Origin: a phage
Sequence record: PZ402305.1
Direction: 5' to 3' (one strand)
Length of the DNA: 64,000 bases
The translations under genes were made by a program, and so were the position numbers. Positions 3,438-38,671 of this stretch are shown here, in pieces. The notes beneath the pieces were generated by a model. The model was given only the letters and a program-made list of their open reading frames with translations. It was not told where the DNA came from and searched no databases. Every line of letters begins with the position of its first letter. Within the stretch, counting starts at the first letter, position 1.

Positions 3438-6113
3438 ATGTTTCCAATTCCAATATTTACTATTATGACCAGCACTGGTGTTGTTCCTCTGCCAGCAGGT
3501 ATTGTTAAAAAAGTAATCACTTTAGATTACCCAGATAATGCTGGTAATTCTAACAGCAGTTTAGCAATTTTGCTTAATGATGGTAGATTGTTTACTCAAG
3601 GCGCAAACCTTTTTGGTGAGATTGCAGATGGAACTCGTAGTGCACGATTCAATAATTTCCATTTAGCTTCTACTGTAGTAGCGGATGTGTTTACCGCAGA
3701 TCGTTGTTTTGTTATTAAAACTAACAGTGGGGGATGGCAATATTCAGGATTGACAGCAGGGTTGGTAGGATCTATAGCAGCAGGTGGTACGGACGCATGT
3801 GTAACTACTTGGACCAGCTTTCCATCTGTAATAACAGGGACTATCTCTTTAGCTAATCTTAAAGAGGTTAAGGGAGGATATAACAACACTCTCTGGTTAA
3901 TGAATAGTGGTGTTCTTTATGGATCAGGTCAAAACACAGTAGGCAGTTTAGGTGCAAGTACTACTAACGAAGTTTCTACTCCTCGTCAGATAACAAGTGC
4001 AGCAGTTGCTTTTGATGCAGGTTACAACCAATGCTCTTATGTCAACAATGTGGGAACCTTGCGTGTTTGTGGAGCTAGTAAAGGTTTAGCAGGTAATAAT
4101 AACACAACAACAGCTTTTGTCAATGCTAAGATATCCGCTACTGAAACAGTGTATGTCAAAGATTACATCAATACAGTTTCCCAGACAATAGTTGTAGGAG
4201 ATACCTCCGGTGGCACGGGTACAGTAAACTACTTATATGTTAGGTCTAATACAGAAACAACCTACACTAAACTGGATACCTTTGCAGCAGGTTTCTCAAC
4301 ATGGAAGTTTCCACCAAGCCGCCACTCTTTTTTCGTTGGGATCAATAATTCCTTGTGGGCTATTGGTAAGAACTACACTGCAAACTTAGGTTTGGGGTAT
4401 GATTCTGCGAGCGGAGATCCACTCCAAGTGGGAAAACCAGTTAAACCTGAAGGAGTGGGTTCTTGGGATATAAACAAGCTCACAAGCGTTCATACGCTGA
4501 ATATGGATGTTACTAACCAATTAGGTTATCAAGGAACCTTTTTCGTTTATAATGGAGATATGTATTATTCCGGTATTTGGAAAGATGGGAAAGCCTCGTA
4601 TCTGTTCAATAGCGGTCTAAACTATAATAAATTCACACCAATAGCAAGCTCCGTGATTACGGGTGATATTCTGGCAACTGGCTTAACTACAGATTCTTTA
4701 GGAATTTGTATTGTAGGTGGAACTAAACAGTTGACACATTCTGTTAGCCCAGAAGGAGGTAAACTTTTCAATATTAAATACACTTCTTCTGCCCCTGCAA
4801 ACATGACAATATCATCTACTGGTTTAATGACTTTCCATGCAGAAGGTGGTTTTGATGCAGGTATGACAGCCTTAAACGCCGAAGGAACAACTTTATCAGA
4901 TACCTCTGGAGGATATGCTTCAACATTGAGTGTTTACACCCCTAGCTTATCTGCGATGGATGTAGGAACAACACAAACAATGGTAGCAGAAATAACGCCA
5001 ACAGGAGCAGCAAGCTTACCTGGTATGGTTGTTGAGTATTTCTCTAATGACCCTACGGTAGCAACAGTTGACCCTGTTACAGGCGTTATTACAGCGGTTG
5101 CTGATGGAGGTTGTCGTATCGGTTGTAGAGCAACTTATCAAGGTGTGGTAACTGCCGAAGATAGTTCTTATCTCACAGTGAATGCTGTGGTGATTGTGAT
5201 GGATTATGATTTGACGCAAGAAACTATTCCGGCGGATGTAAAGGTCAACAGGAGTAACCGTTATGCCAGGGCTTCTGGAGATATCCTTGTACCTACAGAG
5301 AGTTCTGCTCCCGTAGCACCTTTAGAATATGTTGGTACAACTCCACAAGGTAGACGTGTTGTAGCAGCCAACCGTACACATATCTTTATCAACAATAACT
5401 TGACAACAGCTTCCCCGTGGTTGAAGACGAACTTGACAGTCACAGCATCAACAATCAACTCTCCGGTTGGAACTACGGCTAACACTTACAAGTTAACACC
5501 TTCTACAACTTCAGGACAACATATTTTATCAGCAGTGAATACAGCTTCTGATATTACAGCAGGTAAGCACTGGGCGGCATCCGTATTCTTGAAGCCAGAT
5601 GGGATCACTAAAGTGAAACTCAAATTGACTTCAGGAGATGAGATTAACGAAGGGACTTATGATCTTGTAGCTGGAACATTTACAGGTGCAGATGCAAACA
5701 TAATCGATATGGGGAATGGTTGGTATCGTGTAATTCTACACAAAGTGACAGTTGCCAAACAAGCATCTATAACCTATGAGATTATAGCTTTGAATGCAAG
5801 TGGATCAGACACTTTCGCAGGAGATGGTACGGCAGGTCTTATTGCTTGGGTTCCACAGCTTGAGATGGGTGATATGACAAATCCAGTTTGGGCGGGGACA
5901 CCATTTGTTTGTTCTTATGCACGAGACACTACCAGTGCTGTTACCTTCACTATTCCTAAGAATGGACATACTGGCGTGGACATTTACCACACTGATGGTA
6001 CTGTGCAACGAGAGGTCTTCACTGGTACAGCTACAACTTGGATGTTGACGTTCACCGCCGCAAGTGCGGATTGGGGATCGAAGTTCATTACAGGTTTGAA
6101 ATATTACGACTAA
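3438..6113 (+). CDS. large tail/fibre-associated structural protein with bacterial Ig-like segment
   Basis: 891 aa Thr/Ser/Gly-rich protein; segment VAEITPTGAAS...VATVDPVTGVITAVADGG resembles Big_2 Ig-like domains; RBS ggaggg; bidirectional terminator downstream. Confidence 0.55.
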   Translation: MFPIPIFTIMTSTGVVPLPAGIVKKVITLDYPDNAGNSNSSLAILLNDGRLFTQGANLFGEIADGTRSARFNNFHLASTVVADVFTADRCFVIKTNSGGWQYSGLTAGLVGSIAAGGTDACVTTWTSFPSVITGTISLANLKEVKGGYNNTLWLMNSGVLYGSGQNTVGSLGASTTNEVSTPRQITSAAVAFDAGYNQCSYVNNVGTLRVCGASKGLAGNNNTTTAFVNAKISATETVYVKDYINTVSQTIVVGDTSGGTGTVNYLYVRSNTETTYTKLDTFAAGFSTWKFPPSRHSFFVGINNSLWAIGKNYTANLGLGYDSASGDPLQVGKPVKPEGVGSWDINKLTSVHTLNMDVTNQLGYQGTFFVYNGDMYYSGIWKDGKASYLFNSGLNYNKFTPIASSVITGDILATGLTTDSLGICIVGGTKQLTHSVSPEGGKLFNIKYTSSAPANMTISSTGLMTFHAEGGFDAGMTALNAEGTTLSDTSGGYASTLSVYTPSLSAMDVGTTQTMVAEITPTGAASLPGMVVEYFSNDPTVATVDPVTGVITAVADGGCRIGCRATYQGVVTAEDSSYLTVNAVVIVMDYDLTQETIPADVKVNRSNRYARASGDILVPTESSAPVAPLEYVGTTPQGRRVVAANRTHIFINNNLTTASPWLKTNLTVTASTINSPVGTTANTYKLTPSTTSGQHILSAVNTASDITAGKHWAASVFLKPDGITKVKLKLTSGDEINEGTYDLVAGTFTGADANIIDMGNGWYRVILHKVTVAKQASITYEIIALNASGSDTFAGDGTAGLIAWVPQLEMGDMTNPVWAGTPFVCSYARDTTSAVTFTIPKNGHTGVDIYHTDGTVQREVFTGTATTWMLTFTAASADWGSKFITGLKYYD

Positions 6114-6139
6114 TAAAAAAGGGAACCCGCAAAGGTTCC
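6111..6139. terminator. bidirectional terminator between convergent blocks
   Basis: gggaacccgcaaaggttccc hairpin flanked by A-run upstream and T-run downstream; sits between + gene ending 6113 and - gene ending 6177. Confidence 0.7.
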
Positions 6140-6176
6140 CTTTTCTTTTATAAAAACTCTTTATAAATCAATAAGA

Positions 6177-7064
6177 TCAGAATGGAATATCATCGTCGAA
6201 GTCCATTGGAGGTTCTTCTTGATTACTTGGAGTTGGTTCTGGTTGTGGTTCAGGTTTCTTAACTTCTTTCTTCTCTTCTTTCTTAGGCTGTTCTGCGGAA
6301 CCACGAATGGCAGCAGCAACTTTATCAGACAGAGCCAGAACTTTACGAGCAGAATCAATCAGATCTTCTACAGAGACAGTCTTAATGGTATGGTCTTTAC
6401 AAGCATTGAGAATAGCGTGACCAACAGATGCCCCAAGATCATAATCATTAATATCAACGCCACGAGATTCAGCAATTTCAGATTTCAGCGTGACAGTTGC
6501 AGATTGAACAACCCCAGCGATATCGAAAGCATCGCCTTTAACACCATTACGAATCAGTTCCAGTGCACCATTTACTGCGTGACCAGTTTCCAGACCTACA
6601 GTATCACGTTTTTTATAGGACTGCTTAGGAGCAGCATCGTTGGAACCTTTATTGCCAGAAGATTTGTTAGACTTCTGAACACCATCGGTAGACAATACTG
6701 TAATACGAGATTTTTTAGTATTGTAGTAAGTTTTACCGCCTTTATTGTCAACGCGATCAATATCAATACTTACTTCTACACCTTTTTCAATAGTGATCCA
6801 ATTATCACCTTCTTTGACTTGCAGGTTTTCATAACCTTCTTTCAGTTCAATGTCACCAAGAGAAATCCAAACACCTTTCTCATCTGGTTTAGCACCTTTC
6901 TCTTTCAGAACAAGAGAAGCTCGGTGAGTTGAAACAATCGTTTTTCCTTCCCAATGGAAAGTTTTAGGTTCAGCGAATTTATCCAGTTTAACGTAGTCTA
7001 CGATACCAGTTGCATAAGTTACGGTTTTGCCTTTACGATCAGTTTCAGTATTAATTACGGACAT
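6177..7064 (-). CDS. ssb: single-stranded DNA-binding protein
   Basis: C-terminus ...PPMDFDDDIPF matches the canonical SSB acidic tail (DDDIPF); Lys/Glu/Pro-rich linker before tail; RBS gaggag. Confidence 0.65.
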   Translation of the reverse strand: MSVINTETDRKGKTVTYATGIVDYVKLDKFAEPKTFHWEGKTIVSTHRASLVLKEKGAKPDEKGVWISLGDIELKEGYENLQVKEGDNWITIEKGVEVSIDIDRVDNKGGKTYYNTKKSRITVLSTDGVQKSNKSSGNKGSNDAAPKQSYKKRDTVGLETGHAVNGALELIRNGVKGDAFDIAGVVQSATVTLKSEIAESRGVDINDYDLGASVGHAILNACKDHTIKTVSVEDLIDSARKVLALSDKVAAAIRGSAEQPKKEEKKEVKKPEPQPEPTPSNQEEPPMDFDDDIPF

Positions 7065-7080
7065 TATTATCTCCTCTACA

Positions 7081-7473
7081 TTACATTAATTTTGCACAGA
7101 AAGAGCGGAGTCTTTCCATATCATCTTGCTCTAACAGGTATTTACCTTTACCTATTCCAACTCCAATTTCACCATTAGGAAAATGAACTATTTGCACTGG
7201 GAAACCTCCGAGTTTAATTGTGGCAGCTTTGCCTTCTTCGTCTATAACGTTTCGGATTGTATCTTGTAGTGAAATGAATTCTTTGTTTGTAACAGTGGTT
7301 TCAATTATTTCAGATGTTTCGACACGAGCAGTTAGCTTCTTGTTTCCACCTTGAATAACCAAAATTTGAAAATAAAAAGAGTTGTCAAGACCTACAACAT
7401 TTTTCTCAACTAGTGTCAAACTGGTATAGTTTCCATAAACAGTTTCAACAGCTATCTTAGAACGTTCAGTCAT
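7081..7473 (-). CDS. hypothetical protein
   Basis: 130 aa ORF co-oriented in replication block. Confidence 0.5.
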   Translation of the reverse strand: MTERSKIAVETVYGNYTSLTLVEKNVVGLDNSFYFQILVIQGGNKKLTARVETSEIIETTVTNKEFISLQDTIRNVIDEEGKAATIKLGGFPVQIVHFPNGEIGVGIGKGKYLLEQDDMERLRSFCAKLM

Positions 7474-7518
7474 TGAATGCTATCCTATCATAAAATGTTT
7501 AATATTGTCAAGCTTTAA

Positions 7519-8112
7519 TTACCAAGGAATATCATCTTCTTCCAATCTGGTATCTACTTGAGGTGGACGTGGAACCTTAACCTCTTTCACAAAACGAAGA
7601 TATGGGAAACGTGTAGCAATTTTAATAACATGTTTGGCATCTTCTCTAACATCTTTGTGCAAGAAGCAGATCCCTGTTTCCAAGGTTGTTTCAAAATCTT
7701 TAGAATAATAACAGTCCTTCCCATCAAATGCAGCCTGGCAGATGGACAGATCGAACTCATTTAGAAAGGTTGTCATTACGCTTGGTTCCATAATCATAAG
7801 GTTGCAAAGCTGACCATCACGTTCAAACTCAAAAACGTGTTTAAGACCAGTAACACCTTCATAATTGTCAGAAGCCTCTTTGTTTCCTAGTTTACGAATA
7901 TTGGTTCCCATTAAAGCAGATGCAATTAATCCTTGTATTTGTTCTTCAGTCCGATGTGCAGGAAGGGATGTATAGAAATCCAGATCACGTCCAGCAATAT
8001 CAAGAATACGCCAATCACGAACAGCACCGCCAGCCAAGACAGAATTAGGATCAGCGATCTTTAGTATGGTAAGAATTTCTTTGGCAATATTGATTTGTTT
8101 TGATTTAGTCAT
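7519..8112 (-). CDS. Pol-beta-superfamily nucleotidyltransferase-like protein (CCA-adding/poly(A) polymerase head-domain motif) with SSB-like acidic tail
   Basis: GGAVRDWRILDIAGRDLDF matches the GGxVRD...DxD motif of class II tRNA nucleotidyltransferase/PAP head domains; C-terminus ...LEEDDIPW resembles SSB tail. Confidence 0.5.
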   Translation of the reverse strand: MTKSKQINIAKEILTILKIADPNSVLAGGAVRDWRILDIAGRDLDFYTSLPAHRTEEQIQGLIASALMGTNIRKLGNKEASDNYEGVTGLKHVFEFERDGQLCNLMIMEPSVMTTFLNEFDLSICQAAFDGKDCYYSKDFETTLETGICFLHKDVREDAKHVIKIATRFPYLRFVKEVKVPRPPQVDTRLEEDDIPW

Positions 8113-8323
8113 TGATACGCTCCACAGTTACTTTTACAACATCGTCCATATTAATCTCATCCCCCAAGACCTCAATAACACCTTCCTCATAAAGTCGAGC
8201 GCATTCTTCCCACACTTCAGCTTCCGTCATTCCACCTGCAATCTTATTTGCAAGACCTTTAATAACATCTTCATTTTGTTCATCAACAAGAATTGAAACA
8301 TTAAAGCTCACTAATTTACGCAT
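8105..8323 (-). CDS. hypothetical protein
   Basis: 72 aa acidic ORF, start overlaps upstream gene end. Confidence 0.45.
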   Translation of the reverse strand: MRKLVSFNVSILVDEQNEDVIKGLANKIAGGMTEAEVWEECARLYEEGVIEVLGDEINMDDVVKVTVERIND

Positions 8324-8500
8324 TGTTTTCTCCTTATACTTCTAAACGGAAAGTTTCTTTAGATACAAAATCGTATCCACCTTTTTCAAGCCAGTCATTG
8401 TAAACCTCATCGGCTTGAGACTCTATCATAAAATACCGAGTGGTAACTTCGTCTCCGACAATACGCACAATTTTATAGCAAATCATGATACCATTTCCCA

Positions 8501-8692
8501 TTAATCTTCCTCCAGATCAATTTCATTATAACAATGTATGCAGAAACCATCATTGTGCATATGTTGTTCATAAGACATATCTTTACCACAAGACCAACAA
8601 CGGATATCCCCATCGTCCCATTCACGTTCTTCTTCACCTTCAAATTCATCTGGTAGGTAAGGCATACCAAGACAATCTAAATCGTAACTCAT
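8501..8692 (-). CDS. hypothetical small Cys-rich (zinc-ribbon-like) protein
   Basis: ORF track 8501..8797 overlaps DNA polymerase; internal ATG at 8692 has RBS aggagaag and avoids overlap; CWSCG...CIHC motifs. Confidence 0.45.
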   Translation of the reverse strand: MSYDLDCLGMPYLPDEFEGEEEREWDDGDIRCWSCGKDMSYEQHMHNDGFCIHCYNEIDLEED

Positions 8693-8741
8693 ATCTTCTC
8701 CTATAAAGGGGCAGAAGCCCCTTATAAAACAATACGTTAGA

Positions 8742-11339
8742 TCAGTGACAACTGGCCCAGGAATTCCCCACATCATATCCAGCAGTAAGCTGAACATTAA
8801 GATTGTAAAATTCTCCAGCCTTAGTAACAGCTAAGGCAGCAAGTTCACCTGCCCGACTATAGGCTGTAAACCATCCACCTTTGGGAGATTCATGAATGTT
8901 AGCCCAAATTTGTCCCGTCTCTTTTTCCTTATTATGCTTCCATTCTTCAACTTTAGCAAGGCATTCTTTATCAATTTTCTTTTGTTCTTCAGGATCGTCT
9001 ACTTTCTTCCAACCTAATGATTCAGGTGAAAACCATTTAAATTCTACAAGGTTACGAGAAACTTCAAGCTGGGCTTCATCGTGATATGCAATCATTTGTT
9101 GCACGAAGTCTTTATTCTTCCAGTCATCTTTAAAGAAGTCAACACTTAGTCCTTCTTCTTCGATCATGTCGTCATAAATAACCATTGCACGTTTAGCACA
9201 GATAACCCCACCACTTTGGAACAGAGAGTTAAGAATCGCGTGAGCAGAACGAGTAGGAACCTTACGACCGTCAATACCCAAAACATATTGTTTACCAGTC
9301 TTAACCCAGAAATCGTTTAAACGTTCTTTAAGACGCGCCAATGGGAATGCAGCTTCCCAGAAAGCATCAAACACTAATTGACCTGTAAACTTATCGCTAC
9401 CAATTGTTTTAGCAACCTTGTCGGCTTGTGCACCATAGGTAATACCATACTTAACAGCTTTAGCAGGACTACGTTCAAATTTACGTCCAATAGTTTCAGT
9501 GATACGTTTTGCCATCATTGTGTGAACATCGTTAGGTTTCTCTAACAACAGAGCGTTACAATATTCGTGTGGCTCCGGCTCGTACCGCCAACAGTAGTGT
9601 GATTCAATTTTTGCTTCCAAAGAGTCGAAGTCGTAGCCGATCTGGAAGTATTTAGGAACCTCTACACCAAACAAGTTACGCATCTCCCATCCAAACAAAG
9701 ATGTGACACGAGGAATATTAGCTACAGATCTATGCTTCATACGAGAGGTTGCAGCATCACATGTAGCGGCTGGGGTAGGAATACGCCCATCCGCCCTTAC
9801 TGCGGCTAAGAAACCTTTATCGTATTCTTGATCTTCTTCATCTTCTTCCCAATCAGCACCGCCACCTAAAATAGAGTTCCTACGATGCTTATACGTTAAG
9901 TATTCTACAATCTGTGTAGCATAAGGAAACTTCTCACCCAAAGCTTGCAGGTTAGGACAAATTTCTTTTTCCTGACCTTTGGTAAAACATGGGTTAGTCA
10001 ATACTTTAAGACCGCGACCTTTACCTTTTGCTATACGCTCTTGAATCTTCCTTTCCAGGGTTTCCGGTGTGCACTCCAGATGATCACAACGATCCTGACA
10101 AAAATTAGAAGATAGAGTTTGCTCAACGTAAGCTCGAATACCTTTCTGAAGTTCTTCCTCGCTCTTTTTAATCTTGGTGCCAGATTTAAGAGTCAAGTCT
10201 TTATCTTTATATTCAGACGGTACCCAACCTAATCCTACAAGCCAGTTTTTAATATGGGTTGTATCGTTCAATGTTGCAGGAATGTTAGGATCACATAGAG
10301 GTTCATCTGCTGCAACTGGCAGTTTCCACTCTTTCCCCAACATAACTAACCACCAATCGCCATCCCTCTCTTCCAAATGACCATCATGTTTCTTAGCAAA
10401 ATTGATCATATGGTTAGTTGGCTCTAAGTTCTTTTTAATTTGCAACTTAGGTGGAATAAAAGCCTTAAGATAACCTTTTGTTGCTGGTTTAGGTGGCAAA
10501 ATAGGCTCAACGAGTAAACGAAGACGCTCCATTTCTGCATCCAAAAAAGCAAGGTTCTCTTCTGCTTGTTTCATGTTAAAAGCAAACCCACGGTGCTCCT
10601 GGCGTGTAATAATGTCTGCTACACGTTGTTCAAGTTCAAATGGACCTTCCCATTTATCATAATCACCCCATTCTTCCATAAGGTAATTATATACGCTCGT
10701 ATTGGCTTTGTTGTCATAGATACAGTAATAAAGCATATCAGCAGCAAAAGTCTTAAATCGATCTTCTTCTGGAATCTCTTTACGGAAATCTATTTTTACA
10801 TCACCACCTGCCTTTCGAGAAAGTGCTGCCAAACTATGTCCTGATTTGCCCTCAATCTTTCGATCTGGGTTTAACACTTTACTCAAAATCAAGGAGTCAA
10901 TAAGTTTTACCTTATTTTTGCCCCACGTATTATATTTAACACTGTAATCTAATCCATAAAACAGTTTTGTAGCCAACCAGTCGTAGTTGATACCGTTGTG
11001 AGCCACAGCCATTTCAACCAGATATTCAGGCTTGTCTTTAAAATAACCTTCATGATTAATAAAATCTGGGAAATCTTTTAGTTGAAAATGTGTGTAATCT
11101 TGCGCCACATACTCTTTAAGAACATATGTGTATTTACCATCTGACTCTTCATAAGGACGCCCATCAAAGATGTATTTAGGGCCATCGTGGAAAGCTACTA
11201 TTTCTCCTGTTTCATGGTTCTCTAAGACAATACAGTGCATTTGAAATGTGTCTTTGAGACGATAAGGACTAGCTAAATAATCAATAGTGTCATTATTCAA
11301 CAATCCGTTTGCTTCAATATCCCATGTAAACTTACTCAC
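8742..11339 (-). CDS. DNA polymerase, family A (Pol I / T7 gp5-like) with 3'-5' exonuclease domain
   Basis: Exo I motif DIEANGL near N-terminus; motif A DFDSLEAKIESH; motif B RSPAKAVKYGITYG (R..AK...YG..YG). Confidence 0.9.
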   Translation of the reverse strand: MSKFTWDIEANGLLNNDTIDYLASPYRLKDTFQMHCIVLENHETGEIVAFHDGPKYIFDGRPYEESDGKYTYVLKEYVAQDYTHFQLKDFPDFINHEGYFKDKPEYLVEMAVAHNGINYDWLATKLFYGLDYSVKYNTWGKNKVKLIDSLILSKVLNPDRKIEGKSGHSLAALSRKAGGDVKIDFRKEIPEEDRFKTFAADMLYYCIYDNKANTSVYNYLMEEWGDYDKWEGPFELEQRVADIITRQEHRGFAFNMKQAEENLAFLDAEMERLRLLVEPILPPKPATKGYLKAFIPPKLQIKKNLEPTNHMINFAKKHDGHLEERDGDWWLVMLGKEWKLPVAADEPLCDPNIPATLNDTTHIKNWLVGLGWVPSEYKDKDLTLKSGTKIKKSEEELQKGIRAYVEQTLSSNFCQDRCDHLECTPETLERKIQERIAKGKGRGLKVLTNPCFTKGQEKEICPNLQALGEKFPYATQIVEYLTYKHRRNSILGGGADWEEDEEDQEYDKGFLAAVRADGRIPTPAATCDAATSRMKHRSVANIPRVTSLFGWEMRNLFGVEVPKYFQIGYDFDSLEAKIESHYCWRYEPEPHEYCNALLLEKPNDVHTMMAKRITETIGRKFERSPAKAVKYGITYGAQADKVAKTIGSDKFTGQLVFDAFWEAAFPLARLKERLNDFWVKTGKQYVLGIDGRKVPTRSAHAILNSLFQSGGVICAKRAMVIYDDMIEEEGLSVDFFKDDWKNKDFVQQMIAYHDEAQLEVSRNLVEFKWFSPESLGWKKVDDPEEQKKIDKECLAKVEEWKHNKEKETGQIWANIHESPKGGWFTAYSRAGELAALAVTKAGEFYNLNVQLTAGYDVGNSWASCH

Positions 11340-12666: not shown

Positions 12667-14445
12667 TTAATAGTTGCTATCCGTAGGCAAATTAGCAGGA
12701 TTGTTGAAATACTGCTCTTTGTCATGCAGAGTTGCAGTTCTAATGTCATAGTAAAACTGCCCTGCCGGACCAGTTTCCGAGAACTCACGGTTTTTTAGGA
12801 TAAAGCAATGAGTCGTATTGCGTTCTACAGGGTCTTCAGCGGCTTTATCTCGTTCCAAAGCCAAGGTAATACCAGCACCTTTAGCCAAGAAACTACTACC
12901 CATTGCATCGTCCTCTGTTAAGTGTTCATTGCCACCATTAGCCGACTTCTTAACGTGTGAGATGACGATAATGGTTATAGCATACTCTTTCATGATGCGC
13001 TTCAACCATGTTGCTAACTCTTCCTGGGCTTGAACATCCATACCAGAAAGCAAATCAGAATAAGGGTCGATAACAAGAATTGTTACTCCAAAATAGATGA
13101 TCATCTCCAAAACTTTTTCTTTGATAGACTCCACATCTGCTCCACGATCATCACACACATAAAAACGTGGTGATCCATCTTCTCTTTCGTAAAAATCTAG
13201 GATTTTTTCTTTATTCTCTTCCAAGATTTGAAATTTCTCTTCCGGTGTTTTCCTGTGTAGAGGAATATGCAGGAACGAGGACAACAGGTTACGAGAATAT
13301 TTCTTATAAGTTGCTTCCAAGGACAGAATACCTAGGGTATGTTCTGGGTGTGCAACAATAATATGTTTGGTGATCTCATTCACCATCAAAGTTTTACCGA
13401 TACTGGTCTTTGCCAGGATGACTGTAATCTCTTCCTCTACTAAACCACCACCCAGCATATTTGCAGCAACACGCATAAAAGGAGGCAAGGTAATCATCTT
13501 GGATTCCAAGCATTCTAATGCAGCTTCATACAAGACATTAGAAGCATAAACACCTGCTGGGGTGTATAGACGAGCACTCCAAAAAGCTTTTACGAAATCT
13601 TTTGCACGACCTTCTTCCAGATACTGATTGGCATCCTTAAGATCCATCTGCATACGGTAGACTTTGTTACGAGGCAGCACCTTAACAATATTTTCAAATG
13701 CCTCATTACCTGCTTTGTCATTATCCATGCAAACAATAATCTTCTTAAATTTTTCAAAGAAAGGATATTGTGCCTGAACTTGTTTATACATACTGGTTTC
13801 ACCAGTTGTGCCACTAACTACTGCTGGAAGTTCATATTTGTTGTCCAAGTTTTCAGACAGCATTTGATAAGCTGCCAGAGCATCGTGTTCACCACCTGTA
13901 ATTACCACAGTATGAGAACGGTCTGCAAAACGAATTTGTCCAAAAAGATCTACATCTTTACCTACTTGACCAATAGGTTTGCTGAAATCTTTAGGATGAA
14001 TACGACGCTTAAAACCAACCAACTCTTTACCGATAGTAGTTGGATATAAACAACTTTCTACTACCATCTGATCCCCTTCCTGACGGTATTCATAACGAAC
14101 ACCATAGAAAGATGAAACTTTTTCTTTAATGCCTCGATAACCACGTGGGTTGGTTGATGTTTCTTGAACAATTTTACGATGAATCTGTTTATTAAATTCC
14201 GAACCCACAATCTCCTCCTCTTCTTCTAAAACTTCACCATTTTCTCGTAACCATTCTACGCTAGGAATAGTGTATTCACACGCAAAGCACTTAGCACCCT
14301 TATGCTCTCCATTAGAATCTAATCCATAAACCATCAGGTTATTACGAGAGCGATCCTTGCCATTTTTCATGCAGCGCGGACAACCTGTATGCCCTTCCTT
14401 GCTAAGATCAACATCAAATCCATATTTAGTTATAATGTGCGACAC
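12667..14445 (-). CDS. bifunctional DNA primase/helicase (T7 gp4-like)
   Basis: N-terminal CxxC...CxxC zinc-binding segment (CPRCMKNG...CFACEY); C-terminal Walker A AKTSIGKT and Walker B-like VLVIDPYSDL. Confidence 0.75.
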   Translation of the reverse strand: MSHIITKYGFDVDLSKEGHTGCPRCMKNGKDRSRNNLMVYGLDSNGEHKGAKCFACEYTIPSVEWLRENGEVLEEEEEIVGSEFNKQIHRKIVQETSTNPRGYRGIKEKVSSFYGVRYEYRQEGDQMVVESCLYPTTIGKELVGFKRRIHPKDFSKPIGQVGKDVDLFGQIRFADRSHTVVITGGEHDALAAYQMLSENLDNKYELPAVVSGTTGETSMYKQVQAQYPFFEKFKKIIVCMDNDKAGNEAFENIVKVLPRNKVYRMQMDLKDANQYLEEGRAKDFVKAFWSARLYTPAGVYASNVLYEAALECLESKMITLPPFMRVAANMLGGGLVEEEITVILAKTSIGKTLMVNEITKHIIVAHPEHTLGILSLEATYKKYSRNLLSSFLHIPLHRKTPEEKFQILEENKEKILDFYEREDGSPRFYVCDDRGADVESIKEKVLEMIIYFGVTILVIDPYSDLLSGMDVQAQEELATWLKRIMKEYAITIIVISHVKKSANGGNEHLTEDDAMGSSFLAKGAGITLALERDKAAEDPVERNTTHCFILKNREFSETGPAGQFYYDIRTATLHDKEQYFNNPANLPTDSNY

Positions 14446-38054: not shown

Positions 38055-38360
38055 TTAGAATTCCTCTTCAGTCTTCTGTCGGTTTTTGAAGAATACTACG
38101 TCATATACCTCTCCGTAACCATCATTTACACAGAACATAATAAAACGATCATCTTCTGCTGTTGGTGCGCGATGTTCAAGTTCAAAACTTTCAATAAAAC
38201 CGCGTGAATTTACGTAGTAGATTTCATCCTCACCAGAGAACATCCAATCCCTGTCTATCAGATGGAAAGCTAAACTCACAGGCGACAACTCATCCTTCAC
38301 AGAATCATTGTACAGCATGTGGGCTGCAACTGCCAAACTTAAAGTCGTATTGTGCCGCAT
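38055..38360 (-). CDS. hypothetical protein, tandem paralog A
   Basis: Shares LSLAV..H..Y...VKD...P...F....G......E.YF....G......Y..ELE(H/Y)RAP..EDD..IM(F/Y).VN(D/N)G.GE...VVF with 38360..38671. Confidence 0.5.
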   Translation of the reverse strand: MRHNTTLSLAVAAHMLYNDSVKDELSPVSLAFHLIDRDWMFSGEDEIYYVNSRGFIESFELEHRAPTAEDDRFIMFCVNDGYGEVYDVVFFKNRQKTEEEF

Positions 38361-38671
38361 TACATTTCCTCGTCGGACTTCAAGGCTTTAGAGAATACTA
38401 CATTAAACGTTTCACCGCAACCATTATTAACATAATACATGATGTAATTATCATCTTCGTCTACAGGCGCACGATACTCCAATTCATAACTATACAAATT
38501 AGAATTACTTGTGCAACCTTGTGGATACCAAAAGTAAAGTTCACCACAAGATTCTACCCACTTAAGACCGGTCCGATCTTCAAATACTAATGTAGATGGA
38601 TTTTCTGAATCTTTTACAGCTTCTTCGTAATACTGGTGCACCGTAACTGCTAATGATAATGTACTCATCAC
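38360..38671 (-). CDS. hypothetical protein, tandem paralog B
   Basis: Paralog of 38055..38360. Confidence 0.5.
   Translation of the reverse strand: MMSTLSLAVTVHQYYEEAVKDSENPSTLVFEDRTGLKWVESCGELYFWYPQGCTSNSNLYSYELEYRAPVDEDDNYIMYYVNNGCGETFNVVFSKALKSDEEM

What the first reader, a model, noticed from the sequence alone, without database searches (positions are those of the whole stretch)
6177..8112. Nucleotidyltransferase-like protein carrying an SSB-like C-terminal tail
The gene next to ssb encodes a 197 aa protein with the GGAVRD...DLD head-domain motif of class II CCA-adding enzymes and poly(A) polymerases, and it ends in ...EEDDIPW. The neighbouring SSB ends in ...DFDDDIPF. In E. coli that SSB tail recruits partner proteins, so the mimic tail may target this enzyme to the same partners or compete with SSB. 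A short tRNA-nucleotidyltransferase-like enzyme could repair tRNA 3' ends damaged by host defence nucleases or tail RNAs.
Basis: partly seen in the sequence, partly recalled or inferred. Interest (0 to 1): 0.6.

Follow-up and report, generated by a model that had tools for sequence, protein, structure and literature searches.

The report
Phage nucleotidyltransferase with SSB-like tail
A small phage enzyme of the kind that adds nucleotides to nucleic-acid ends carries the short C-terminal "address tag" that bacterial single-strand DNA-binding protein uses to recruit its partners, so it is probably delivered to replicating DNA, perhaps to counter host defence, rather than used to repair tRNA.

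Summary
The window is a phAPEC8-like E. coli myophage. ORF 7519..8112(-) encodes a 197-aa protein with GGAVRD...DLD that ends in EEDDIPW. ORF 6177..7064(-) ends in EPPMDFDDDIPF, the same last 12 residues as E. coli SSB. A conserved 130-aa gene lies between them, so they are not adjacent.

The predicted fold (pLDDT 86.7) matches the head and first neck helices of class II CCA-adding enzymes and poly(A) polymerase. The tRNA-binding body and tail domains are absent, motifs B and D are not kept, and all 11 phAPEC8 tRNA genes already encode CCA. tRNA repair is therefore weakly supported.

The protein belongs to a large phage family of ~190-aa enzymes. These are homologous to the catalytic core of Gad2, the Gabija anti-defence protein whose mechanism is unknown. 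The family usually sits between primase-helicase and family-A DNA polymerase genes.

The D-I-P-W tip follows a disordered, fast-drifting linker. It is kept down to 34% identity, and similar tips recur in scattered family branches (8/147 against 11/858 background, P = 7e-4).

Best reading: a Gad2-like enzyme tethered to SSB-tail-binding sites at replicating DNA. The substrate is unknown. I rate it a new variant of a known kind, of moderate interest.

The parts
7519..8112 (-). 197-aa minimal nucleotidyltransferase (phAPEC8 gp083 equivalent). Structured core is residues 1-178, followed by a disordered C-terminal tail.
   Evidence: ORF; 99-100% identical to phAPEC8-like phages; AF2 model pLDDT 86.7, pTM 0.81; Foldseek PDB hits to class II CCA-adding enzymes and poly(A) polymerase I; phrog_10174 and phrog_1614 'nucleotidyltransferase'.
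7972..8040 (-). Motif A of the Pol-beta fold (residues 25-47): VLAGGAVRDW...RDLDFYT, with G28, G29, R32, D33, W34, D43 and D45.
   Evidence: A27, G28, G29, A30, R32, W34, D43 and D45 are invariant and D33 is 99% conserved in 117 family members. This stretch aligns to GGAVRD...D.D of human and bacterial CCA-adding enzymes, E about 0.1 by sequence alone. E95, the likely third carboxylate, is acidic in 59% of the family and N/Q in 27%.
7522..7578 (-). Disordered linker plus tip (residues 179-197, PRPPQVDTRLEEDDIPW).
   Evidence: pLDDT below 50 for residues 179-181 and 183-197. Linker sequence and length vary among homologues at 58-83% identity.
7522..7536 (-). SSB-Ct-like tip D-D-I-P-W followed by the stop codon TAA (7519-7521).
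   Evidence: Sequence. Conserved in P0001-P0010 (DDIPW; DSFPW in P0003), in P0138 (DDIPW, 34% identity) and in Tr1 (KDIPW). It shares only the 11 nt gatgatattcc with the SSB-like gene's tip, so there is no sign of recent gene conversion.
7081..7473 (-). Conserved 130-aa ORF of unknown function between the nucleotidyltransferase and the SSB-like gene.
   Evidence: phrog_16560, unknown function. Present in the same position in 12 related loci, with identity down to 29% among the nine sequences aligned in A6. No Pfam or PDB sequence match.
6177..7064 (-). 295-aa atypical SSB-like protein. OB-fold domain at residues 1-125 (6690..7064), disordered linker at 131-149, four-helix bundle at 156-253 (6306..6599), disordered tail at 261-295.
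6180..6212 (-). Tail tip PPMDFDDDIPF of the SSB-like protein, identical to the E. coli SSB C-terminus; stop codon TGA at 6177-6179.
   Evidence: phmmer alignments to PDB chains 7f2n and 1eqq; NCBIfam PRK09010 matches only residues 254-295.
6117..6144 (.). G+C-rich hairpin with T-runs on both sides. Probable bidirectional terminator that closes the leftward replication operon and the rightward tail-fibre gene.
   Evidence: Terminator-like site; sequence; annotated as a terminator in phAPEC8.
8742..11339 (-). Family-A DNA polymerase (865 aa), upstream in the same leftward gene block (context).
   Evidence: Pfam DNA_pol_A, E 6.5e-14; annotation.
12667..14445 (-). Toprim + DnaB-like primase-helicase (592 aa), T7 gp4 type (context).
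   Evidence: ORF. Pfam Toprim_2 and DnaB_C on the 592-aa product at the corresponding position in L092, a contig that carries the same nucleotidyltransferase.

Best explanation
The gene encodes a minimal, probably active Pol-beta-type nucleotidyltransferase. It consists of the head and first neck helices of the class II (CCA-adding / poly(A) polymerase) lineage.

It belongs to a large phage-specific family of ~190-aa 'GGAPRDW...DLD' enzymes. That family shares its catalytic core with the Gabija anti-defence protein Gad2 and usually sits in T7-type replication modules (primase-helicase and family-A polymerase).

In this lineage the catalytic core is followed by a flexible ~18-residue linker ending in D-I-P-W-COOH, a copy of the bacterial SSB tip. 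The proposed mechanism is that the tip plugs into a pocket that normally receives the SSB C-terminus. That pocket could be on host SSB-interacting proteins, on the phage's own polymerase, or both. T7 gp2.5 and gp4 both dock on T7 DNA polymerase in this way. Docking would concentrate the enzyme at ssDNA gaps, nicks and ends of replicating phage DNA. There it would add nucleotides to a 3'-OH of DNA or primer RNA. The biological role would be replication-linked counter-defence (Gad2-like, against systems that sense DNA ends), not tRNA CCA repair.

Shown here: the fold, the catalytic motif, the disordered tail, conservation and recurrence of the tip, the replication-module context, and homology to Gad2.

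Inferred: that the tip binds SSB-Ct pockets, the identity of the partner, the substrate, and the anti-defence role.
For: Fold: AF2 pLDDT 86.7. The best PDB matches are all class II enzymes over about 185 columns: 3aql, 1miv, 1ou5, 3h37 and 4wc2, E 1e-5 to 1e-3. Many 167-230-aa phage proteins share the fold, TMq up to 0.82.

Active site: G28, G29, R32, D43 and D45 are invariant and D33 is 99% conserved in 117 sequences.

Gad2 link:
- Many family members carry precomputed Pfam PF26128, which is named Gad2.
- hhalign of the family profile against the experimentally verified Brevibacillus Gad2 gives probability 86.8%, E 4e-6, over 143 columns (sequence from the supplement).
- A gad2 knockout makes phage SPbetaL7 sensitive to Gabija, and Gad2 is a predicted nucleotidyltransferase.
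- Its mechanism was still unknown in 2026, and Gabija is described as DNA-end sensing.

Context:
- In 50 non-redundant viral loci, 20 of the 64 large neighbours within 3.5 kb are family-A polymerases and 18 are DnaB-like helicases.
- The order PolA - small ORFs - nucleotidyltransferase - ~130 aa - SSB-like is kept down to 34% identity. Where the locus reaches far enough, a primase-helicase lies upstream of PolA.

Tail:
- It is disordered.
- The tip is invariant while the linker drifts.
- The tip survives even when the acidic run is lost, as in Tr1 (HSKPKDIPW).
- -[ILVMF]P[FWY] ends occur in 8 of 147 family representatives against 11 of 858 other ORFs of at least 150 aa from the same kind of loci, P = 7e-4.
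- For the seven bearers outside the phAPEC8 clade, the nearest relatives are tail-less, which points to repeated gain.

Precedent:
- The T7 gp2.5 tail anchors on the polymerase's basic patch, and a DTDF peptide mimicking the gp4 tail binds there too.
- In locus L081 a gp2.5-like SSB (...DEDVPF) and a DnaB-like helicase (...ADDRVPF) carry the same tip.
Against: No binding or activity was tested; everything about the partner and the substrate is inference.

The exact window protein has no precomputed Pfam hit, not even a faint one, to PF26128. It shares only about 17% identity with verified Gad2, which has GGTITS instead of GGAVRD and a ~220-aa C-terminal domain that is absent here. None of the Gad2 homologues in the held part of the published table ends in an SSB-like tip.

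The tip always ends in W here, while every SSB-like neighbour ends in F. The two tails may therefore have different targets.

Several relatives in the same synteny lack the tip: the phi92-like proteins end EEFKI, and L009 ends FMDEI. The tip is therefore dispensable for the family's core function.

The third catalytic carboxylate is not universally conserved.

A general bias towards acidic or aromatic C-termini in the family is not significant, P = 0.10 and 0.40.
Confidence: 0.45

Rival explanations
1. tRNA 3'-end repair or CCA-adding enzyme. The enzyme would rebuild CCA ends on phage or host tRNAs damaged by defence nucleases, and the tail would be an accessory feature.
For: All the best structural matches are CCA-adding enzymes and poly(A) polymerase I. 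Motif A is of the class II type. In this clade the segment REDAKHVIKIATRF resembles motif D, the nucleotide-templating EDxxR helix of class II CCA-adding enzymes; I know that motif from memory and read the match directly from the sequence. phAPEC8 carries 11 tRNA genes. One distant family member is fused to an AAA_33 P-loop kinase domain; such kinases include polynucleotide 5'-kinases (my knowledge), which hints at nucleic-acid end healing.
Against: There are no body or tail domains; the structured part ends at about residue 178. Motif B RRD is replaced by NEFD. The positions equivalent to motif D are not conserved in the family: 157 is D/W/N, 158 is E/G/S, 161 is Y/H. All 11 phage tRNA genes encode CCA, and there are no tRNA genes in the window. 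No RNA ligase or polynucleotide kinase is annotated in phAPEC8. The genomic context is DNA replication, not tRNA genes. An SSB-type tail points to DNA-metabolism partners.
Confidence: 0.15
2. Decoy or competitor. The tail's main job would be to occupy SSB-Ct pockets on host proteins (repair or recombination enzymes, or defence components that read SSB). This would titrate them away from host or phage SSB. The nucleotidyltransferase domain would act independently or mainly as a carrier.
For: The tip copies the residues that matter most in E. coli SSB-partner contacts (D, I, P and a terminal aromatic with a free carboxylate). The phage's own SSB-like protein copies the host tail exactly, so this phage already engages the host SSB interactome. 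Several defence systems are reported to sense phage SSB. Gad2 of SPbetaL7 is toxic when expressed, as is the Gad2-family nucleotidyltransferase of phage Emajogi.
Against: A decoy would not need a conserved catalytic centre, yet DxD and GG are invariant. One tail on an enzyme must compete with SSB, which in E. coli is a tetramer with four tails (my knowledge). Most family members lack the tip, and verified Gad2 homologues lack it too.
Confidence: 0.15
3. Dedicated phage-replisome subunit with no role in defence. The tip would dock only on the phage family-A polymerase or on the SSB-like protein. The enzyme would serve replication itself, for example by adding to or trimming primer or genome ends.
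For: The position between primase-helicase and PolA is conserved across very different phages. There is the T7 gp2.5/gp4 precedent and the L081 helicase/SSB pair with a shared tip. The start codon overlaps the upstream ORF within the polymerase operon.
Against: The family is patchy among related phages, and the tip is missing in close syntenic relatives. That fits an accessory gene better than a core one. The only experimental datum for the superfamily is anti-defence.
Confidence: 0.15
4. The tail resemblance has no function: a short acidic end that happens to look like SSB-Ct.
For: Only five residues are shared. W replaces the canonical F. Some syntenic relatives lack the tail. Generic acidic or aromatic ends are not enriched in the family.
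Against: The tip is invariant next to a drifting linker over 58-97% identity and is retained at 34-36% identity. It has been gained recurrently in unrelated branches, P = 7e-4. It sits at the end of a predicted disordered segment, as SSB tips do. These are the only two such ends in the 64-kb window.
Confidence: 0.07

Closest known systems
Gad2 (Gabija anti-defence 2; Pfam PF26128), Bacillus phage SPbetaL7 and Brevibacillus prophage
   Same: Homologous Pol-beta nucleotidyltransferase core: IAGG...ND(L/V)D(V/I)YF...(L/V)Q...FDF(T/S)(V/I)C...EDF. hhalign gives probability 86.8%, E 4e-6. It is phage-encoded and many family members are labelled PF26128. The enzymatic mechanism is unknown.
   Different: Gad2 is about 400 aa, with an extra ~220-aa C-terminal domain. 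It has GGTITS where this family has the invariant GGA(P/V)RDW. It has no SSB-like tip. It lies in the SPbeta anti-Gabija locus rather than a replication module. The exact window protein has no recorded PF26128 hit. Anti-Gabija activity is untested for this clade.
Class II CCA-adding enzymes and bacterial poly(A) polymerase I (Pfam PF01743 head domain)
   Same: Best structural matches, covering the head and the start of the neck. Motif A GGAVRD...DxD is present.
   Different: About half the size. No body or tail domains, no RRD motif B, and motif D is not conserved. The Pfam PolyA_pol score of 13.9 bits is below the 23-bit cut-off.
Bacterial SSB C-terminal tip (SSB-Ct, ...DDDIPF) and its interactome
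   Same: The extreme C-terminus is D-D-I-P-aromatic, preceded by acidic residues and a disordered linker. The neighbouring phage SSB-like protein carries the exact E. coli tip.
   Different: The carrier is an enzyme, not an ssDNA-binding protein. The terminal residue is Trp, not Phe, in every member of this clade. The carrier's oligomeric state is unknown, whereas E. coli SSB is a tetramer presenting four tails (my knowledge).
T7 replisome: acidic C-terminal tails of gp2.5 (SSB) and gp4 (primase-helicase), both docking on gp5 DNA polymerase
   Same: A non-SSB replication protein shares the SSB's tail to reach the same docking site. The replisome type is the same here: family-A polymerase plus a Toprim-DnaB primase-helicase. 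A direct parallel was seen in locus L081.
   Different: In T7 the tail is on the helicase, and the tip is ...DF rather than ...IP[FW]. Here the primase-helicase has no such tail, and the tail-bearing protein is a nucleotidyltransferase.

Membership tests
Class II CCA-adding enzyme / poly(A) polymerase (PF01743) | Pol-beta head fold with motif A (GGxVRD ... DxD) | tested here: met
   AF2 model plus Foldseek PDB, E 1e-5 to 1e-3, to 3aql, 1miv, 1ou5 and 3h37. G28, G29, R32, D43 and D45 are invariant; D33 is 99% conserved.
Class II CCA-adding enzyme / poly(A) polymerase (PF01743) | Pfam PolyA_pol head-domain HMM at or above the gathering score | tested here: not met
   13.9 bits against a cut-off of 23, E 0.07. 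Relatives score 12-15 bits.
Class II CCA-adding enzyme / poly(A) polymerase (PF01743) | Motif B (RRD, ribose recognition) and motif D (EDxxR, nucleotide templating). Motif definitions are from my knowledge of the family. | tested here: not met
   The motif B position reads NEFD, with a family consensus of F-P/D. In this clade the motif D region reads EDAKH, but family columns 157, 158 and 161 are D/W/N, E/G/S and Y/H. The correspondence is by sequence pattern and secondary-structure order, not by residue-level superposition.
Class II CCA-adding enzyme / poly(A) polymerase (PF01743) | Neck, body and tail domains that bind the tRNA acceptor/T arm (or RNA) | tested here: not met
   The protein is 197 aa and the structured part ends at about residue 178. 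Matches cover about 185 columns of targets 344-517 aa long (TMt 0.23-0.30).
Class II CCA-adding enzyme / poly(A) polymerase (PF01743) | CCA or poly(A) addition activity | not testable with these tools
   Needs enzyme assays.
Gad2 (PF26128) | Match to the Pfam PF26128 model | tested here: inconclusive
   The local Pfam copy lacks the model. In the precomputed tables the exact window protein has no hit. Its 60%-identical relative P0009 and more than 50 family members carry PF26128. P0138 is 'faint', P0221 is 'weak', and P0250 is unmarked.
Gad2 (PF26128) | Homology of the nucleotidyltransferase core to an experimentally verified Gad2 | tested here: met
   hhalign of family profile A3 against Brevibacillus laterosporus Gad2: probability 86.8%, E 4.2e-6, 143 columns, Gad2 residues 25-173.
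Gad2 (PF26128) | Two-domain architecture of about 400 aa (nucleotidyltransferase plus C-terminal domain) | tested here: not met
   197 aa, with nothing beyond the catalytic core except the disordered tail.
Gad2 (PF26128) | Inhibits Gabija defence | not testable with these tools
   Needs infection assays. Shown only for SPbetaL7 Gad2 and a Brevibacillus homologue.
SSB-Ct motif (bacterial SSB tip) | At the extreme C-terminus with a free carboxylate: hydrophobic - Pro - aromatic, preceded by Asp | tested here: met
   ...E-E-D-D-I-P-W followed by a stop codon. W replaces the canonical F.
SSB-Ct motif (bacterial SSB tip) | Carried on an intrinsically disordered linker | tested here: met
   pLDDT below 50 for residues 179-181 and 183-197. 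Linker length and sequence are variable.
SSB-Ct motif (bacterial SSB tip) | Evolutionary conservation of the tip, independent of the linker | tested here: met
   recurrence in the family.
SSB-Ct motif (bacterial SSB tip) | Binds the hydrophobic pocket and basic lip of SSB-interacting proteins | not testable with these tools
   No complex prediction or binding assay is available here.
Canonical bacterial SSB (for the 295-aa neighbour) | SSB OB-fold domain detectable by sequence (Pfam SSB / NCBIfam) | tested here: not met
   No Pfam SSB hit. NCBIfam PRK09010 and the PDB SSB chains match only the last 26-42 residues.
Canonical bacterial SSB (for the 295-aa neighbour) | OB fold by structure, plus a disordered linker, plus the acidic IPF tip | tested here: met

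The most novel reading that the evidence does not exclude
The SSB-tip mimic is a portable address label that phages repeatedly bolt onto Gad2-type nucleotidyltransferases, delivering them to SSB-coated gaps and DNA ends. There the enzyme would tail or cap 3' ends, or modify primers, and so blind DNA-end-sensing immunity such as Gabija. This would both reveal the unknown mechanism of Gad2-class counter-defence and define a new class of SSB-interactome hijackers: enzymes that pose as SSB rather than bind it.
Probability: 0.15. Interest if true: 0.8.

Novelty: new variant of a known kind. Interest (0 to 1): 0.5.

Why it matters
Gad2 is a proven anti-Gabija protein whose mechanism was still listed as unknown in 2026. 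This window shows a stripped-down relative that is embedded in the replication operon and carries a recognisable docking tag. That gives a concrete hypothesis about where such enzymes act: SSB-Ct-binding sites at replicating DNA.

It also gives simple experiments: a tail peptide, tail-deletion mutants, and nucleotide-addition assays on DNA ends against tRNA.

More generally, it would extend the idea of the SSB tail as a recruitment hub. So far the tail is known on SSBs and, in T7, on the helicase. Here it would sit on an accessory enzyme that imitates SSB. My two literature searches did not find this described.

If the tail proves non-functional, the gene remains an ordinary, already annotated phage nucleotidyltransferase.

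Tried and rejected
- **Direct family assignment.** Pfam, NCBIfam and PDB sequence searches gave only sub-threshold PolyA_pol and CCA hits for the nucleotidyltransferase.
- **tRNA maturation rationale.** There are no tRNA genes in the window. The 11 phAPEC8 tRNA genes lie about 42 kb away and all encode CCA. I first scanned the wrong thirds of the genome. No RNA ligase or polynucleotide kinase is annotated.
- **RlaP family** (RNA-ligase-associated Pol-beta). Considered but not tested by name; no family other than PolyA_pol reached E 0.1 in the Pfam scan.
- **General enrichment of aromatic or acidic-aromatic C-termini in the family.** Not significant: 27/147 against 14%, P = 0.10; acidic plus aromatic, P = 0.40. 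Only the specific -[ILVMF]P[FWY] tip is enriched.
- **Recent gene conversion between the two tails.** Only 11 nt are shared and the flanks are unrelated.
- **SSB-like tips on published Gad2 homologues.** None in the held part of the supplementary table.
- **Function of the 130-aa gene in between.** No Pfam or PDB match, even with a 9-sequence profile.
- **Neighbourhoods of distant family members** (P0364, P0011, P0221, P0238, P0250). These are early or nucleotide-metabolism regions full of small unknown ORFs and are not very informative.
- **Literature on non-SSB phage proteins with SSB-Ct tails, or on phAPEC8 gp083.** Nothing found.
- **The published Nature version of the Gad2 paper** is not held. 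My recollection that active-site mutants abolish Gad2 activity therefore remains unverified and is not used as evidence.
- **Promoter-like sites** are at chance level in the region.


Full report
**What the window is.** The region 5800-9000 is 99.1-99.5% identical to phAPEC8-like E. coli myophages (Phapecoctavirus, Stephanstirmvirinae). In phAPEC8 the three genes of the finding are gp083 ('nucleotidyltransferase'), gp084 (hypothetical) and gp085 (hypothetical; 'single-stranded DNA-binding protein' in some other records). They close a leftward block: primase-helicase (12667..14445), two ORFs, family-A DNA polymerase (8742..11339), three small ORFs, the nucleotidyltransferase, a 130-aa ORF, the SSB-like gene, and then a hairpin terminator at 6117-6144 facing the tail-fibre genes.

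**Check of the observation.**
- ORF 7519..8112(-) encodes 197 aa with LAGGAVRDW...RDLDFY and ends RLEEDDIPW.
- ORF 6177..7064(-) encodes 295 aa and ends PSNQEEPPMDFDDDIPF. Its last 12 residues equal those of E. coli SSB.
- No other ORF in any frame of the 64 kb ends in [DE][DE][ILV]P[FWY].
- One correction: a 130-aa ORF (7081..7473) separates the two genes.
- The DNA encoding the two tips shares only gatgatattcc and the flanks are unrelated, so the likeness is not a recent copy.

**The 'SSB'.** Outside its tail the 295-aa protein matches no SSB model or solved SSB by sequence. Its predicted structure has four parts:
- a beta domain (residues 1-125);
- a disordered linker (131-149);
- a four-helix bundle (156-253);
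- a disordered tail (261-295).

**The enzyme.**
- Sequence methods alone barely see it: Pfam PolyA_pol scores 13.9 bits against a 23-bit cut-off, and the PDB profile search gives E about 0.1, limited to motif A.
- With a 117-sequence alignment, AlphaFold2 gives a confident model: pLDDT 86.7, pTM 0.81, with residues 179-197 disordered.
- All significant PDB matches are class II nucleotidyltransferases: E. coli poly(A) polymerase I 3aql/3aqk, B. stearothermophilus CCA 1miv, human 1ou5/4x4w, T. maritima 3h37-3h3a, and the 3wf*/4wb*/4wc2 tRNA-enzyme entries. E values are 1e-5 to 1e-3 over about 185 columns. Other Pol-beta families (Pol mu, TUTases, Cid1, MenT) trail at E of 0.0075 or worse.
- The protein is only the head plus the first neck helices. 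Reading the sequence against the class II motifs (from my knowledge of that family), NEFDLSICQA occupies the place of RRDFTxNA, and REDAKHVIKIATRF the place of EDxxRxxRAxRF. Across the family these positions are not conserved, whereas A27, G28, G29, A30, R32, W34, D43 and D45 are invariant, D33, Y84, F140 and K164 are at least 98% conserved, and position 104 is Q or N in 97%.
- The candidate third carboxylate, E95, is acidic in 59% of members and N/Q in 27%.

**The family.** An exhaustive search finds 265 clusters (at 50% identity) of mostly 175-230-aa proteins. BFVD shows the same minimal fold in many phages, including LKD16, PP2, Ninurta, fHe-Yen3-01, Cd1, phiAS7 and ICP1 ORF223.

Many members carry precomputed Pfam PF26128, and the neighbour tables name it Gad2. 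What is known about Gad2:
- It is the ~400-aa Gabija anti-defence protein of phage SPbetaL7.
- Deleting it makes the phage Gabija-sensitive, and a Brevibacillus homologue restores resistance.
- AlphaFold predicts a nucleotidyltransferase.
- A 2026 review still lists its mechanism as unknown and describes Gabija as DNA-end sensing.

A profile-sequence comparison of the family with the verified Brevibacillus Gad2 (sequence from the paper's supplement) gives probability 86.8%, E 4e-6, over the nucleotidyltransferase core.

The relation is real but distant. Gad2 has GGTITS instead of GGA(P/V)RDW and an extra C-terminal domain. The exact window protein has no recorded PF26128 hit. The local Pfam copy lacks the model.

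**Context.** I collected 80 viral loci with family members and reduced them to 50 with under 70% identity.
- Of the 64 neighbours of at least 380 aa within 3.5 kb, 20 are family-A DNA polymerases and 18 are DnaB-like helicases, 12 of them with Toprim.
- The family is therefore an accessory of T7-type replication modules.
- In the rV5 / phi92 / phAPEC8 group, the order PolA - small ORFs - nucleotidyltransferase - ~130 aa - SSB-like is kept down to 34% identity. Where the locus reaches far enough, a primase-helicase lies upstream of PolA.
- The phage's 11 tRNA genes lie about 42 kb away and all encode CCA.
- No RNA ligase or kinase is annotated.

**The tail.**
- In homologues of 58-97% identity the tip is DDIPW (once DSFPW), while the linker changes in sequence and length.
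- P0138 (34% identity, same synteny) ends NFPDDIPW.
- Citrobacter phage Tr1 (36%) ends HSKPKDIPW, keeping the tip without the acidic run.
- Other syntenic relatives lack it: phi92-like EEFKI, L009 FMDEI, L013-17 PDVFNF.
- Among 147 family representatives, 8 end in [ILVMF]P[FWY]. Among other ORFs of at least 150 aa in such loci, 11 of 858 do, and many of those are gp2.5-like SSBs. This gives P = 7e-4.
- For the seven bearers outside the phAPEC8 clade, the nearest relatives are tail-less, so the tip has been gained or lost repeatedly.
- A looser bias to aromatic or acidic ends is not significant.
- The tip here is always W, while the SSB-like proteins always end in F.

**How it most likely works.** Three features together mark a short linear docking motif: a disordered linker, an invariant terminal tip, and recurrence in the family.

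The known receptors for this motif are the SSB-Ct pockets of bacterial genome-maintenance proteins (established knowledge; searches list the literature). In T7 the acidic tail of gp2.5 anchors on the polymerase's front basic patch, and PDB 6P7E holds a DTDF peptide that mimics the gp4 helicase-primase tail, used in that paper as the template for placing gp2.5's tail on the polymerase. I found the same arrangement in locus L081, where a gp2.5-like SSB (...DEDVPF) and a DnaB-like helicase (...ADDRVPF) share the tip.

I therefore propose that the nucleotidyltransferase is tethered through D-I-P-W to SSB-tail receptors at replicating phage DNA, and that it acts there on a 3'-OH end. Given the Gad2 relationship and Gabija's end sensing, a counter-defence role is the most attractive. 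The partner, the substrate and the role are all inferred.

The rivals are set out with their tests in the Rival explanations section:
- tRNA repair;
- pure decoy;
- pure replisome subunit;
- non-functional resemblance.

**Verdict.** The sequence facts are right, and the tail mimicry is supported as far as comparative data can go. The tRNA-repair reading is the weakest part. The gene is known and annotated, and its superfamily is now named after Gad2. What is new is the minimal architecture combined with an SSB-tip mimic and the replication-module association. My two literature searches did not find this described. I rate it a new variant of a known kind, of moderate interest because it offers a handle on an open mechanism.

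Noticed in passing
window 6177..6179 and downstream; loci L011 11026-11973, L088 6064-7035, L093 7049-7981: Here the SSB-like gene stops right after IPF. In many relatives, including one 99% identical (P0013), the ORF continues for 15-16 conserved residues (APIGLQYGRNFLHCF, SPLGLQYPNHSMYALYA and others). That would bury the tip's free carboxylate. The extension comes with inserted DNA downstream: a 164-aa ORF with no Pfam hit in L093 and L088, and an N6/N4 DNA methylase cassette in L011.
   Followed up: partly
window 7081..7473 (-): A 130-aa ORF is conserved between the nucleotidyltransferase and the SSB-like gene across rV5 / phi92 / phAPEC8-like phages, down to 29% identity. Invariant residues are M1, V9, L21, N31, F33, H97, G101, E102, G104, K111 and F125. 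It has no Pfam or PDB match and may be a partner of either neighbour.
   Followed up: partly
L081 3062-3904 and 6199-6750: In one viral contig a DnaB-like helicase (...ERADDRVPF) and a gp2.5-like SSB (...EDLDEDVPF) share the same SSB-type tip, paralleling T7 gp4/gp2.5.
   Followed up: partly
L032 727-1416; L038 7134-7805: Two ~225-aa proteins of phrog_862 (unknown function), about 3 kb upstream of distant nucleotidyltransferase homologues, end in ...GDDVPW and ...KDKDIPW. A Trp-ended SSB-like tip therefore occurs on another phage protein family.
   Followed up: partly
protein P0364 (locus L002 8001-8924): A 307-aa family member is fused to an N-terminal AAA_33 P-loop kinase domain; such kinases include polynucleotide kinases (my knowledge), which hints at nucleic-acid end processing.
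   Followed up: no
L093 1802-5371: In a contig that encodes the identical nucleotidyltransferase, the family-A polymerase ORF is 1189 aa instead of 865 aa. This suggests an insertion, such as an intein or mobile element, in the polymerase gene.
   Followed up: no
window 7482..7511 (-): A good sigma-70-like site (TTGACA, 18-nt spacer, TG-TAGGAT) lies in the 45-bp gap between the nucleotidyltransferase stop and the 130-aa ORF. It might drive separate expression of the 130-aa and SSB-like genes. The number of such sites in the region is at chance level.
   Followed up: no
window 38055..38387 (-): A 110-aa ORF ends in ...RQKTEEEF, the only other acidic, aromatic-ended ORF in the window.
   Followed up: no
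window 8105..8112: The nucleotidyltransferase start codon overlaps the end of the upstream 72-aa ORF by 8 nt, which suggests translational coupling within the polymerase operon.
   Followed up: no
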